From Escherichia coli (GTDB lineage: Bacteria; Pseudomonadota; Gammaproteobacteria; Enterobacterales; Enterobacteriaceae): 64,000 nt of DNA. Position numbers: made by a program. Within the stretch, counting starts at the first letter, position 1, and every line of letters begins with the position of its first letter. This document shows, one piece after another, positions 55,001 through 58,000 of the stretch. The DNA is taken from NCBI RefSeq assembly GCF_017348835.2, contig NZ_CP072312.1. One strand, given 5' to 3'.

Positions 55001-58000
55001 TAAGCGCATTCGTGGCGATAGCCCACATATGCGGCCTTCGATGTGTAGGTTTTGGTAAATACCAGGTGGCCAACCACGCTGAATCCCGCATTTTTCCAGG
55101 CGGCCATAAAGCGATCGACGCGGTTCCAGCCATAGAAGCTCACCATCAGCGCATCTTTTTTCAGCACTCGGTACATTTCATTACAGGCCGGTTGCAGCCA
55201 TTCATCGGTTTTATCGCCGGCGATGGTACGCCCCTGACGGTCACGGAAACCGACGAGATATGGCGGGTCGGTGAGGATGAAATCGACAGCATTGCCCGGA
55301 AACGTGGCCATAACACGCACGCAGTCACCCTGGATAAAACGGGACATAACAGCACTCCTTCTCTTACAGAGGGCACCGGGAGGGCGCCCCTGTGGCGCCC
55401 GTTCCCCGCTGCCTGTGGGCTGTTCACCGCGTCCGGTAACGGGTCAGGCCGACCGTGGAATACCGCAGCCGTCGTCTTTTTGACGGCGAGGATATGCCGC
55501 GAAAGCGGCTTGAAGGGCGTTCATCAGAAAAGGGCGACGGGCTGGCGTACACTGTCACCAACGCCAGCCGGGAGCGGTAAAAGCGCCCGTCCCGTGCCCG
55601 GCCGGACGCGGGACACTGACCACAGGCAGCGTTCCTGCCGCGCCGCGTCAGCCGGCGCAGTAAAAAGAGGAGCCCGGCGACATCCTTTACCGGAAAAGAA
55701 ACGGGCGGTTGCCCGCCCGTCTCCGTCATACTTCATCCTCCATAATGCGCCACATTGTCGACTATCCACGCCGGTCCGGTGACTTCCGGCAGCTCATCGT
55801 CATCTGTCGGGGAAGACCATTCAAGTTCCCCCCCACAGCACATCAACGAGCTCTCCACGCTCATACAACTGCCAGCCACAGAAATCACAGCCCTGTTCGG
55901 CATACCAGTGCTCCAGTGTGCAACTGAAACGGCGGCTTAATTCTGCAATAACGTCGCTTTCTGGCTGACACCACGGCGTGTCAAAATCCACCTGAATGAA
56001 GTTGTCTCTCTGACTGCTGATATTCACCTCATACCCCACAGGCCACTTCACGCCATACTGTTCGGTATACCAGTGATATGCAGAAGGAACACCGTTCAGA
56101 ACACCACCGTTAAAGCCGTTTACTTCAACATCCAGGCGGCTGGGCATCAAAATGGGGTACCGTGGTTTCAGCTGAAGTCGGTGAAATTTTCGGAGCCGGT
56201 CATCGTCTTCTCCAGTAATTACCCGCTATACGCATCGATGTCGAACAGGGTCATGGTTCATCTGGAGGCGCTGGCACCGCGCGTTGAGCAGTACTCGATT
56301 GACGAGATGTTTCTCGACGTGCGAGGTATTGACAGCTGCATCGATTTCGAGGATTTCGACCAGCAGCTGCGTGAACACGTCAGGAACGGGACTGGCCTGA
56401 CTATCGGTGTCGGAATGGGGCCAACCAAAACGTTGGCAAAGTCAACACAATGGGCTTCCAAAGAGTGGCCACAGTTTGGTGGCGTGCTGGCATTAACGCC
56501 GGACAATATCCGCCGTGCGGAAAAACTGCTGTCACTGCAGCTGGCGCACGAACCCTGTATTTATCAGGAAGAACTTCAATGTGGTTCTGGAGAGAAAGGT
56601 CCGGGAACTCAATGGAGAAAGCTGTATTTCACTGGAGGAAGAACCGCCCCCCCAAACAGCAGATAGTCTGCAGCCGGTCCTTTAGAGAGCGCGTCACGAC
56701 ATATGAGGCCATGCGCTAGGCCATCTGTCGGTACGCTGAGCGTGCAGCTGAAAAGCTGCGGGGCGAGTGTCAGTTCTGCAGACATATCGCCATTTTTTTG
56801 AAGACGTCACCGTTCGCAGTAAACGAACCGTATTACGGGAATGTGGCCAGTGAAAAACTGCTCATCCCCACGCAGGATACACGGGATATCATTGCCGCTG
56901 CCGTTAGAATTCTGGACAGGATATGGGTGGATGGCCATCGATATGCAAAAGCGGGTTGCATACTCAACGATTTCACTCCTACCGGGGTTTCGCATTTGAA
57001 CCTTTTCGATGATACTCAGCCCCGGAGCAACAGTAACCAGCCGTTGAAAGTCGTGGACAGCATTAACCATTCCGGTCTGGGGAAAGTGTGGTTTGCAGGC
57101 CGAGGCATTGCGCCAGAATGGCAGATAAAGCGTGAGATGTCGTCACCGGCATACACTACCCGCTGGAACGAACTACCGGTCGCCAGACTTTGAAAAAAAG
57201 AAATTCATGGTGATTTCACTATGAAAGAATTAAAAAAAATACTTTATATTCAGTAAAATAAGCATGAAAAAAGCGTGGTGAAAATTGCAAAAAAAGGATG
57301 CCATTTGGCATCCTGATATTAACCCGGCATATCCTATTCAGGCAGTTTTCTTAGAATGTTTTTTATAGCCTCATCGATTTCTAACTGCACCTCATTAGAT
57401 ATGCGGGAGAACTCATAAACAACAAGACGCTTTCTGGGGTCAGTCTTCTTTCTGGCAAATTGGTTACGATCAGAAAACTCTTTCAACTTCTCAGTTTCCA
57501 CTGTTTTTACAGGCCGGTCTGTAAGCAATTTTCCTTCAGACCTGAAGACCGCCAGGATTTTGCTTTTCTCAATTGTTGGATAGTCAGGTAAAGCCATCAG
57601 TTTTTGGCGAACTCTATCCATAAACTCTTCCACTGACATTTTTTTGTTGGTTGCCTTTTCAGACAGTTTCAACAAAAATTGATAGTCCGACAGCGAAATA
57701 TCATTGATTATCGGAAATACAGAGATCATTTCATCCGGTACTGATGCCGCCTGAAATGCGCGTGTTACTTTTGCCGGAGAGATGCTTTCAGCCTGAGCGA
57801 TCTCTTCTTTTGTCATACTTGCCCCATAAGTAACTTCAAGGCGTTTTCCTAGTTCTCGGAGGCTATGCTCTCTGGCTGTCTGTATATCTTTTGCAAGTTG
57901 TCTCGCGTCGGCAATATCAATACTGTCTTTTGTAACCAGTATTTCGAATTTTACGTTGTTATAGATACAGGCAGCACGACGACGCGTACCGTCTAATACT

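What the first reader, a model, noticed from the sequence alone, without database searches (positions are those of the whole stretch)
55371..55650. Hairpin B upstream of the orphan methyltransferase
The reverse complement of 55400-55445 aligns with 55601-55650, with about 155 nt between the arms, plus a local palindrome at 55383-55399. The methyltransferase start at 55347 lies just downstream. This is the same architecture as hairpin A and would allow methylation activity to be expressed before second-strand synthesis.
Basis: partly seen in the sequence, partly recalled or inferred. Interest (0 to 1): 0.55.

Follow-up and report, generated by a model that had tools for sequence, protein, structure and literature searches.

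The report
Single-strand promoter of plasmid methylase

Summary
The inverted repeat exists with slightly different coordinates: arms 55407-55446 and 55595-55631, and a local hairpin at 55378-55406. It is the most stable 300-nt fold in the leading region (-96.5 kcal/mol; background -43 ± 11.5).

The + strand is the transferred strand, because the exact F nic/TraI site lies at 47349-47370. It is therefore the template for the methylase gene (55347..54664, - strand).

The sequence is 97% identical to the region upstream of M.EcoGIX in pESBL. That region is the published "class 3" ssDNA promoter (Wen et al., NAR 2025), called ssp3 in F. Its start site was mapped by 5' RACE and it is induced in transconjugants. 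The methylase is 90% identical to M.EcoGIX.

Comparison across Enterobacterales and Burkholderiales shows covarying stems and a conserved three-way junction. I infer two features:
- A -10-like xACACT (55612-55617) sits in a conserved mismatch bubble.
- A -35 TTGACC is assembled from two separated segments, TTGA at 55510-55513 and CC at 55591-55592.

The duplex form lacks a usable -10. The RefSeq "hypothetical protein" ORF across the hairpin is probably spurious.

The parts
54664..55347 (-). Orphan N6-adenine DNA methyltransferase gene (227 aa), homologue of M.EcoGIX; first gene of the operon driven by the hairpin
   Evidence: ORF. NCBIfam NF010253, 497.7 bits against a cut-off of 244. 90% identical to the pESBL-EA11 DNA methylase. 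Same gene order as in pESBL and F.
55355..55360 (-). Ribosome-binding site AAGGAG, 7 nt before the ATG. Its T-strand complement CTCCT can pair with AGGAG at 55668-55672 in the ssDNA fold.
   Evidence: Sequence; pairs 55355-59 / 55668-72 in the MFE.
55378..55406 (+). Local hairpin (stem 55382-88 / 55394-400, closed by 55378-81 / 55403-06). It lies between the main stem and the gene, and would be in the 5' UTR if the start site is near 55414.
   Evidence: Pair probability at least 0.97. 4 of 7 pairs show compensatory double changes across 15 sequences, with 100% of cells paired (helix 2). The RNA fold of the predicted 5' UTR keeps it.
55407..55418 (+). H1 left strand (template strand), pairing with 55620-55631. 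The predicted start site is about 55414 ± 2.
   Evidence: Pair probability at least 0.99. 4 pairs have compensatory changes (helix 4). The start site is inferred from the -10 position and was not measured here.
55419..55426 (+). Template side of the conserved mismatch bubble (GCTGTTCA), opposite the -10-like element
   Evidence: CTGT is invariant in 15 sequences yet not complementary to the invariant ACACT opposite it.
55427..55443 (+). H2 and H3 left strands (55427-36 and 55439-43), the template strand of the promoter spacer
   Evidence: H2 probability at least 0.96. Consensus pairs and 2 compensatory pairs (helices 5, 6).
55444..55513 (+). Arm A of the three-way junction: H4 55444-51 / 55506-13, H6 55454-62 / 55493-501, apical helix 55465-70 / 55482-87. 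It holds the near-invariant motifs GGTCA(R)G, CGTGGAATA and TATGCCGCGAAAGC..CTTGA. TTGA at 55510-13 is the proposed first part of the -35.
   Evidence: Consensus folds of two separate clades give the same arm. Motifs are shared by Enterobacterales and Burkholderiales. 100% pairable but invariant, so covariation is uninformative.
55514..55590 (+). Arm B of the junction (H5 55515-19 / 55584-88, hairpin 55541-48 / 55561-68). Its sequence is variable; it is inserted in the non-template strand inside the proposed -35.
   Evidence: The equivalent arm in Burkholderiales covaries heavily (columns 133-144 with 166-178).
55591..55611 (+). H3 and H2 right strands (non-template spacer). CC at 55591-92 is the proposed second part of the -35 (TTGA|CC).
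   Evidence: The CC following the junction is present in every lineage examined.
55612..55617 (+). -10-like hexamer GACACT on the non-template arm. A55613 lies opposite C and T55617 opposite T, so both are unpaired.
   Evidence: A, ACT and the following G are invariant in 15 sequences. Pair table. The Burkholderiales equivalents are GACTGT, GACGGT and GATTGT, with the A in an A·G mismatch and the T in a G·T wobble.
55620..55631 (+). H1 right strand (non-template), downstream of the -10
55667..55688 (+). Conserved distal motif GAGGAGC-N2-GGCGACATCCTTT at the 3' edge of the element on the T-strand. The class 2 hairpin has the same motif at 53095-53119.
   Evidence: Invariant blocks; compared by eye. 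Function unknown.
55701..55720 (-). Terminator-like hairpin followed by TTTCTTTT on the coding strand, between the upstream gene remnant and the promoter
   Evidence: RNA fold -23.7 kcal/mol, z = -3.7. The tool's terminator scan did not list it.

Best explanation
Hairpin B is this IncF plasmid's copy of the class 3 single-stranded-DNA promoter, called ssp3 in F. It lies upstream of the M.EcoGIX-type orphan methyltransferase operon.

Shown or published: during conjugation the + strand enters the recipient 5'-first from the nick at about 47362. The roughly 290-nt segment 55378-55672 folds on itself. Host RNA polymerase initiates on the folded single strand and transcribes leftwards into the methylase gene. 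Synthesis of the complementary strand removes the fold and switches the promoter off.

Inferred here: the fold is a three-way junction. The template strand (55407-55451) runs unbroken through four helices, H1, H2, H3 and H4. The non-template strand is interrupted by a side arm (55514-55590). Stacking H4 on H3 brings TTGA (55510-13) next to CC (55591-92). Together they form a -35-like TTGACC over the contiguous template sequence GGTCAG (55442-47). 17 to 19 nt further on lies a -10-like xACACT (55612-17). Its two critical bases, A-11 and T-7, are held unpaired in a conserved bubble. The predicted start site is about 55414, which gives a 5' UTR of about 67 nt. In duplex form the same position reads TGAACA/AACAGC, which lacks A-11 and T-7, so the promoter would be silent.
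For: Identity with the published element:
- 97% identity over 530 nt to the pESBL-EA11 region upstream of its DNA methylase.
- The methylase is 90% identical to that of pESBL.
- The downstream gene order (73-aa ORF, DUF1380, 258-aa ORF, antirestriction gene) matches pESBL and F.
- More than 5000 plasmids carry the segment at 95% identity or more.

Published function: Wen et al. 2025 report up to about 500-fold induction of leading-region operons in transconjugants, a 5'-RACE start site for the M.EcoGIX promoter, the class 3 definition, conservation in F, and prolonged induction in uvrD recipients. The 2026 preprint uses ssp3 as a working ssDNA promoter without roadblock activity. Fomenkov et al. 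2020 report that the methylase is silent in its native host and protects the plasmid only when oriT is in its native orientation.

Strand: the exact nic/TraI site is on the + strand.

Fold: z = -6.2, and the deepest of three minima in the leading region.

Structure conserved in evolution:
- 98.3% of cells pair, against 36-47% when partners are slid.
- 14 pairs have double changes, against 1-4 in the slid controls; 0 of 500 shuffles reach this.
- An independent consensus fold of the Burkholderiales homologues gives the same three-way junction, with the same 0, 1 and 2-nt linkers, and 20 of 61 pairs compensated.

Split -35 and -10: TTGA|CC, then a 17-19 nt spacer, then the xA...T hexamer, in the 10 lineages scanned (L040 and L041 were not reached, and the spacer counts and Achromobacter/Bordetella registers were read by eye); mismatches at -11 and -7. 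The junction-constrained fold is only 1.8 kcal/mol above the MFE.

No duplex promoter; the duplex-form hexamers score -5 to -6 bits.
Against: - Nothing was measured on this plasmid. Function is transferred from 97%- and about 98%-identical copies in pESBL and F.
- The published start site and boxes appear only in a figure and a supplement that I could not read. My -35, -10 and start-site assignment may differ from theirs.
- The -10-like hexamer is weak (1.6 bits) and the spacer is 19 nt in this lineage.
- As a score, the composite is no better than the best chance hit in the region (7.95 bits).
- In the thermodynamic ensemble of this one sequence, H4 has a probability of only about 0.2 and the consensus H3 about 0.02.
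- Arm A never varies, so covariation cannot confirm its helices.
- Whether sigma region 4 tolerates a side arm leaving the -35 is unknown.
Confidence: 0.87

Rival explanations
1. The main role of the structure is priming. It would be a single-strand initiation site whose RNA, or a primosome assembled on it, starts complementary-strand synthesis in the recipient, with methylase expression as a by-product.
For: Frpo (class 1) transcripts prime DNA synthesis in vitro, and ssp1 does so in vivo. Arm A contains TATGCCGCGAAAGCGGCTTGAAGG, which resembles TATGCCGCAAAAGCGGCATGGAAGG in ssiE at 47990-48014. Arm A is conserved far beyond what the stems need.
Against: This role does not exclude the promoter role. 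In all 22 class-3 loci retrieved the element sits directly upstream of a methylase start codon; GTGGAATA lies 94-114 nt from it in the 21 loci where the motif is exact. No priming data exist for ssp3. In Burkholderiales the ssiE-like tetraloop hairpin cannot form, yet the motif is kept.
Confidence: 0.15
2. It is an ordinary duplex promoter or a structured 5' leader (attenuator, riboswitch-like element or mRNA stabiliser). The inverted repeat would act at the RNA level.
For: The local hairpin 55378-55406 covaries and would lie in the mRNA leader. The - strand and its RNA fold as well as the + strand.
Against: No sigma-70-like site on the coding strand. No Rfam family reaches threshold. A terminator-like hairpin lies just upstream. 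The gene is reported silent in vegetative cells and induced only on transfer. Most of the long-range stem would lie upstream of the predicted start site.
Confidence: 0.04
3. The region encodes the 101-aa 'hypothetical protein' annotated in RefSeq (55729..55424, - strand), and the repeat is incidental.
For: PGAP annotates such an ORF in the identical plasmid, in pESBL and in F.
Against: A 1-nt indel separates the window from pESBL inside the ORF. Other lineages carry indels of 1, 2 and 4 nt, and their longest open stretches are 57-117 aa in different frames. No NCBIfam match. Substitutions are compensatory for base pairing. A 68% G+C sequence gives long open frames by chance.
Confidence: 0.03
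4. It is a replication roadblock that delays complementary-strand synthesis, as shown for ssp2.
For: It is a very stable hairpin on the T-strand, more stable than the class 2 element in this window.
Against: The 2026 preprint used ssp3 precisely as a promoter of equivalent strength with no roadblock activity.
Confidence: 0.05

Closest known systems
Class 3 ssDNA promoter of pESBL upstream of M.EcoGIX (Wen et al., NAR 2025, PMC12672017), called ssp3 in F (bioRxiv 10.64898/2026.01.09.698686)
   Same: 97% sequence identity. The window is near-identical to the F copy in alignment A2. Same position and orientation relative to oriT, same downstream operon, and the same kind of ssDNA fold found by the same sliding-window criterion.
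   Different: Only a few substitutions and a 1-nt indel in an internal loop (column 261). The upstream DUF1281 gene is truncated here. No experiment was done on this copy.
Frpo / ssiD / ssi1-3 (class 1 ssDNA promoters; Masai and Arai 1997; Bates 1999; Nasim 2004; Couturier 2023)
   Same: Same principle: a T-strand hairpin in the leading region read by host RNA polymerase and inactivated by second-strand synthesis. The non-template strand is the 3' arm. A class 1 copy sits in this window at 50951-51288.
   Different: No sequence similarity. Class 1 carries an A/T-rich apical stem and a contiguous -10 (TACATT) on one arm. Hairpin B has no contiguous box pair.
Class 2 ssDNA promoters (ssp2; upstream of klcA/ardB and ardA; 'Frpo' 4' of Samuel et al. 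2024)
   Same: A G+C-rich long hairpin upstream of an anti-restriction operon, sharing the distal motif GAGGAGC..GCGACATCCTT. In many other plasmids a class 2-type hairpin replaces class 3 upstream of the same methylase gene.
   Different: Class 2 has TTGCAT-15-TAAGAT contiguous on the 3' arm (52986-53012) and acts as a replication roadblock. Class 3 has neither feature.
RNA-polymerase-recognised single-strand folds outside conjugation: the M13/f1 minus-strand origin and 6S RNA as an open-promoter mimic (from general knowledge, not tested here)
   Same: Sigma-70 holoenzyme engages a folded single strand in which the -10 region is held open.
   Different: Those produce a primer or sequester the polymerase. 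This element drives an mRNA. There is no sequence relation, and Rfam gives no hit.

Membership tests
Class 3 ssDNA promoter (ssp3, M.EcoGIX promoter) | Sequence homology to the pESBL region upstream of M.EcoGIX | tested here: met
   97% mean column identity over 532 columns. The F copy aligns throughout.
Class 3 ssDNA promoter (ssp3, M.EcoGIX promoter) | Lies in the leading region on the transferred strand, directly upstream of an M.EcoGIX homologue for which the T-strand is the template | tested here: met
   nic/TraI site on the + strand at 47349-47370. Methylase on the - strand, 90% identical to that of pESBL.
Class 3 ssDNA promoter (ssp3, M.EcoGIX promoter) | 300-nt ssDNA fold below -75 kcal/mol (the discovery criterion of Wen et al.) | tested here: met
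   -96.5 kcal/mol at window start 55360; one of three such regions in 46000-64000.
Class 3 ssDNA promoter (ssp3, M.EcoGIX promoter) | Transcription start inside the hairpin and induction in transconjugants before ds conversion | not testable with these tools
   Published for pESBL and F only. The start-site coordinates are in a figure that is not held.
Class 3 ssDNA promoter (ssp3, M.EcoGIX promoter) | Inactive as duplex DNA | tested here: inconclusive
   No sigma-70-like site on the coding strand. The duplex-form hexamer lacks A-11 and T-7. This is sequence inference only.
Frpo / ssi class 1 | Sequence homology to F ssiD or ColIb ssi1-3 | tested here: not met
   BLAST of the five known sequences hits 50951-51288 and ssiE, and nothing in 55348-55735.
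Frpo / ssi class 1 | Contiguous -35 and -10 boxes on one arm of the stem | tested here: not met
   The best contiguous hit on the T-strand (CAGAAA-17-TACACT) lies in a hairpin loop and is not conserved.
Class 2 ssDNA promoter (ssp2) | Homology to the klcA/ardA hairpins with TTGCAT...TAAGAT/TACAGT | tested here: not met
   Frpo' 4 matches 52787-53034 only. Only the distal GAGGAGC..GCGACATCC motif is shared.
Sigma-70 promoter (functional class) | -10 hexamer with A at position 2 and T at position 6 on the non-template strand | tested here: met
   GACACT at 55612-17. The A and T are invariant in all lineages and mismatched or wobble-paired.
Sigma-70 promoter (functional class) | -35 hexamer in duplex form 16-18 bp upstream | tested here: inconclusive
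   Present only as a composite TTGA|CC across the junction. The spacer is 17 nt in Burkholderiales and 18-19 nt in enterics. Stacking geometry cannot be tested here.
Rfam RNA families | Match at gathering score | tested here: not met
   No hit in 55000-56000.

The most novel reading that the evidence does not exclude
The class 3 promoter may be a three-way-junction promoter rather than a simple stem-loop with reconstituted boxes. Its -35 hexamer (TTGACC) would exist only when two helices stack across the junction, so that four bases come from one arm and two from another. Its -10 would be pre-opened by conserved A·C and T·T mismatches at the two bases that sigma-70 flips out. This design is conserved from Enterobacterales plasmids to Burkholderiales elements, where the methylase is only about 60% identical. 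It would explain both single-strand specificity and silence as duplex. If the published figure already assigns the boxes this way, the reading is not new.
Probability: 0.4. Interest if true: 0.55.

Novelty: already known. Interest (0 to 1): 0.27.

Why it matters
The element is part of the timing device that lets conjugative resistance plasmids methylate their DNA, and make anti-restriction proteins, before the recipient's restriction enzymes see duplex DNA. For this window, the result is that the finding is explained. It is a near-identical copy of a promoter characterised in 2025, carried by more than 5000 sequenced plasmids.

Three points may add to the publication, if confirmed:
- The structural reading (junction, split -35, pre-opened -10) gives testable point mutations.
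- The same design is kept in Burkholderiales.
- Different plasmids place either a class 2 or a class 3 promoter in front of the same methylase gene.

Tried and rejected
- **Rfam, whole window:** no hit in the region.
- **Sigma-70 scans:** the tool's consensus scan found nothing. A position-weight scan of both strands gave only non-conserved or loop-located hits.
- **Samuel et al. 2024 Frpo and candidate sequences:** BLAST gave no hit to hairpin B, so that catalogue does not cover it.
- **Repeats:** a direct-repeat search between the leading-region hairpins found no shared repeats.
- **Loop-facing promoter, with the left arm as non-template strand:** rejected. The left arm has no conserved xA...T hexamer, and classes 1 and 2 both carry their boxes on the 3' arm.
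- **TTGACG at 55480-85 as the -35:** rejected, because it is not conserved.
- **TACACT at 55548-53 as the -10:** rejected. It sits in a hairpin loop and reads TAAAAT in the Citrobacter-type copies, with no conserved partner.
- **Covariation test on arm A:** uninformative, because every pair is invariant.
- **Published start site:** the supplement of PMC12672017 is not held, and neither the protocol paper nor the 2026 preprint states it.
- **Literature search for ssiE:** only unrelated papers.
- **F record:** accession AP001918 is not in the collection; NC_002483 was used instead.
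Full report
**1. What is in the sequence**

The window is an IncF plasmid. The queried segment (window 55348-55735) is 100% identical to pF2_18C_FIB, NZ_CP043544.

The inverted repeat is real. The best gap-free arms are 55407-55436 and 55602-55631 (30 nt, 83% complementary, 165 nt apart). The single-strand DNA fold extends them to about 55407-55446 and 55595-55631.

Positions 55632-55650 belong to a separate small hairpin.

The methylase ORF starts at 55347 on the - strand, is 227 aa long, and has AAGGAG 7 nt upstream.

The fold is far beyond chance:
- The 388-nt fold has an MFE of -112.9 kcal/mol, z = -6.2, with 0 of 100 shuffles as stable.
- I repeated the discovery procedure of Wen et al. 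(300-nt windows, 10-nt steps, DNA parameters) on 46000-64000. Only three places fall below -75 kcal/mol. Hairpin B is the deepest at -96.5, against a background of -43.0 ± 11.5.
- The other two places are 50970-51370 and 52730-53100.

The opposite strand folds nearly as well (-110.7 kcal/mol). Stability therefore does not choose the strand.

**2. Which strand matters**

FinP and the traJ leader lie at about 46465-46575. The exact 22-nt F TraI-binding and nic sequence, TTTGCGTGGGGTGT|GGTGCTTT, is on the + strand at 47349-47370. By established knowledge of F oriT, that is the sequence of the nicked, transferred strand.

So the + strand enters the recipient 5'-first, with coordinates increasing. 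It is the template for the - strand genes of the leading region, the methylase included.

**3. What it is**

BLAST against PLSDB shows the 388-nt segment in at least 5000 plasmids at 95% identity or more. These are mostly Escherichia, Klebsiella and Salmonella.

The literature held here explains it.
- **Fomenkov et al. 2020 (PMC7736820).** M.EcoGIX of pESBL is a single-strand-specific methylase. It is silent in its native host and protects the plasmid only when oriT has its native orientation. The authors placed an "Frpo (ssi)" upstream of it.
- **Wen et al. 2025 (PMC12672017).** RNA-seq of transconjugants showed six strongly induced leading-region operons in pESBL. The authors predicted an ssDNA hairpin upstream of each, mapped all six start sites by 5' RACE, and defined three classes. 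Class 1 is Frpo/ssi1-3, class 2 lies upstream of klcA and ardA, and class 3 is the single hairpin upstream of M.EcoGIX. Classes 2 and 3 are conserved in F.
- **A 2026 preprint.** It names these elements ssp1, ssp2 and ssp3. It uses ssp3 as a promoter equal in strength to ssp2 but without ssp2's replication-roadblock activity.

I fetched pESBL-EA11 and F.
- The window's 55300-55830 is 97% identical to the pESBL region upstream of its DNA methylase.
- It aligns throughout with the F copy.
- The methylase is 90% identical to the pESBL enzyme and matches NCBIfam NF010253.
- The downstream gene order is the same.

Hairpin B is therefore a member of the published class 3 (ssp3) family.

The Frpo catalogue of Samuel et al. 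2024 does not contain it. Their sequences hit three other places in the window:
- 50951-51288 (class 1, 92.6% identical to F ssiD);
- 52787-53034 (class 2, their Frpo' 4);
- ssiE, at 47958-48071 and 49505-49587.

**4. Comparative anatomy (my own analysis)**

A scan of one genome per species with the methylase protein returned 40 loci. Their upstream regions fall into three groups.
- **Class 3-like copies in enteric genera.** Citrobacter, Raoultella, Enterobacter, Erwinia, Edwardsiella, Hafnia and Entomohabitans carry them at 76-81% identity.
- **Class 2-type hairpins.** Klebsiella, Yersinia, Salmonella arizonae, Pantoea and others carry a class 2-type hairpin (TTGCAT...TACAGT) before the same gene.
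- **Large hairpins in Burkholderiales.** Achromobacter, Bordetella and Paraburkholderia, whose methylase is 59-67% identical, carry hairpins of -110 to -125 kcal/mol. These share the short motifs GGTCA, CGTGGAATA and TATGCCGCGAAAGC..CTTGA with hairpin B.

I aligned 15 enteric sequences (A2), took the consensus fold and counted pairs.
- 98.3% of cells pair, against 36-47% when the partners are slid.
- 14 pairs carry changes on both sides, against 1-4 in the slid controls.
- 0 of 500 shuffles reach the observed values.

The compensatory changes sit in the base helix H1 (55407-18 / 55620-31), in H2 (55427-36 / 55602-11) and in the local hairpin. One caveat applies: only about four or five independent lineages contribute.

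The consensus fold is a three-way junction. H1, a bubble, H2 and H3 (55439-43 / 55591-95) form the trunk. Arm A spans 55444-55513 and arm B spans 55514-55590.

The linkers at the junction are:
- 0 nt between H3 and H4 on the 5' strand;
- 1 nt between H4 and arm B;
- 2 nt between arm B and H3.

A separate consensus fold of the Burkholderiales sequences gives the same junction with the same 0, 1 and 2-nt linkers, and 20 of 61 pairs are compensated.

For the window sequence alone, the junction fold is 1.8 kcal/mol above the MFE (-100.0 against -101.8 kcal/mol). Thermodynamics neither favours nor excludes it. H1, H2 and the local hairpin have pair probabilities of at least 0.96.

Arm A is 100% pairable but never varies, so covariation says nothing about it. 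By eye, H4 shows two compensated pairs between the two orders: TCARGCYG/CRGCTTGA against TCAAGGG/CCCTTGA.

**5. How it most likely works**

Shown elsewhere: the element drives early, transient transcription from the entering single strand.

Inferred here are the details of how the promoter is built.

*Orientation.* The only geometry consistent with leftward transcription places the non-template strand on the 3' arm. Classes 1 and 2 in this window have their boxes on that arm (TACATT; TTGCAT-15-TAAGAT).

*The -10.* On the 3' arm of hairpin B there is an invariant xACACT at 55612-17. It lies inside a bubble whose two sides are both conserved yet not complementary (left CTGT, right ACACT). A55613 faces C, and T55617 faces T. 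These are the two -10 positions that sigma-70 flips out of the helix (general knowledge). Burkholderiales have GACTGT, GACGGT or GATTGT at the same place, with the A in an A·G mismatch and the T in a G·T wobble.

*The -35.* No contiguous -35 exists. If H4 stacks on H3, as the 0-nt linker suggests, the non-template strand reads TTGA (55510-13) followed by CC (55591-92). That gives TTGACC over the contiguous template sequence GGTCAG (55442-47). This composite is present in every lineage examined, although the rest of H3 differs among them.

The spacer to the -10 is:
- 17 nt in the Burkholderiales examined (L033-L035, L038 and L039; L041's main stem matches L039's, and L040 was not examined);
- 18 nt in three enteric lineages;
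- 19 nt in the window type, where the template side has 15 nt.

*Start site and duplex form.* The start site would be about 7 nt after T55617, at template position about 55414. That gives a 5' UTR of about 67 nt containing the covarying hairpin. After second-strand synthesis the non-template strand becomes the complement of the left arm, CTGACC-17-AACAGC, or TGAACA in register. It then lacks A-11 and T-7. That accounts for silence as duplex and on the other strand.

*Weak points.*
- The -10 is weak as a score, and the composite scores no better than the best chance hit.
- The junction helices have low probability in the single-sequence ensemble.
- I could not see the published start site.

I put about 0.9 on the general identity and function, and about 0.4 on the split -35 and pre-opened -10 details.

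**6. Rivals**

- **The RefSeq "hypothetical protein" ORF (55729..55424).** It is not conserved in frame. There is a 1-nt indel between the window and pESBL, and indels of 1, 2 and 4 nt elsewhere. It has no family match.
- **A duplex promoter or RNA leader.** This is unsupported.
- **A priming role.** It is possible and not exclusive.
- **A roadblock role.** The 2026 preprint reports the contrary for ssp3.

**7. Verdict**

The element is already known as the class 3 ssDNA promoter (ssp3), so novelty is low. The structural reading and the phylogenetic reach are leads that can be checked against the published figure and by simple mutations.

Noticed in passing
window 50951-51288 (+): A class 1 Frpo/ssiD copy, 92.6% identical to F ssiD in T-strand orientation. 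Its 300-nt fold reaches -77 kcal/mol, and a TACATT -10-like box lies at 51149-54 on the 3' arm of the apical stem.
   Followed up: partly
window 52787-53034 (+), boxes at 52986-53012: A class 2 (ssp2, 'Frpo' 4') hairpin upstream of the KlcA/ArdB-like antirestriction gene (52757..52356). TTGCAT-15-TAAGAT lies on the 3' arm, while the opposite template arm has a 19-nt spacer.
   Followed up: partly
window 47958-48071 and 49505-49587; insertion at about 48084-49421: ssiE is split in two by an IS4-family insertion. In the identical plasmid record no ssb, psiB or psiA is annotated between oriT and the class 1 hairpin, so this leading region seems to lack the usual ssb-psiB-psiA block.
   Followed up: partly
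loci L006, L009-L012, L014-L016, L020, L022, L030, L031, L042 (upstream of the methylase): In many other genera the same methylase gene (74-96% identical) is preceded by a class 2-type hairpin (TTGCAT/TTGTAT...TACAGT) instead of class 3. This points to promoter-module swapping in front of one gene.
   Followed up: partly
loci L033-L035, L038-L041 (Achromobacter, Bordetella, Paraburkholderia), about 2200-2500 on the - strand: The methylase homologues (59-67% identical) lie on long contigs and so may sit in integrated elements. They carry the same three-way-junction design, with GGTCA, CGTGGAATA, TATGCCGCGAAAGCCCTTGA and a 17-nt spacer to GACTGT or GATTGT. The class 3 design therefore reaches beyond Enterobacterales.
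   Followed up: partly
window 47990-48014 compared with 55493-55516: ssiE contains TATGCCGCAAAAGCGGCATGGAAGG, close to arm A's TATGCCGCGAAAGCGGCTTGAAGG. This may be a shared recognition motif or a chance resemblance between G+C-rich tetraloop hairpins.
   Followed up: no
window 55667-55688 and 53095-53119: The class 3 and class 2 elements share a distal motif on the T-strand (GAGGAGC..GGCGACATCCTTT and GCGGAGCCGGTGGCGACTTCCTTTG). It also appears in Samuel et al.'s insect-metagenome candidates. AGGAG can pair with the complement of the downstream RBS in the ssDNA fold. Its function is unknown.
   Followed up: no
window 55424-55729 (-): The RefSeq/PGAP 'hypothetical protein' lying across the hairpin, annotated in this plasmid type, in pESBL and in F, is not frame-conserved. 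It is probably an artefact of high G+C content.
   Followed up: yes
window 55701-55720 (-), T-run at 55692-55700: A terminator-like hairpin (-23.7 kcal/mol as RNA) followed by TTTCTTTT lies between the upstream gene remnant and the promoter. It would insulate the methylase operon from read-through. The consensus terminator scan did not list it, and the Citrobacter-type copies keep the stem but not the T-run.
   Followed up: partly
window 55821-56666: The upstream DUF1281 gene is only a 109-aa remnant (308 aa in pESBL). It abuts an oppositely oriented ORF whose start resembles a Y-family polymerase (umuC/impB). This suggests a rearrangement near 56150-56220.
   Followed up: no
window 49400-49760 and 47090-47400 (+): After correcting fold energy for G+C content, these A/T-richer stretches are as far from expectation as hairpin B (residuals -26 to -32 kcal/mol). 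The second is the oriT region. The first begins at the right end of the IS4 insertion and includes the ssiE remainder.
   Followed up: no
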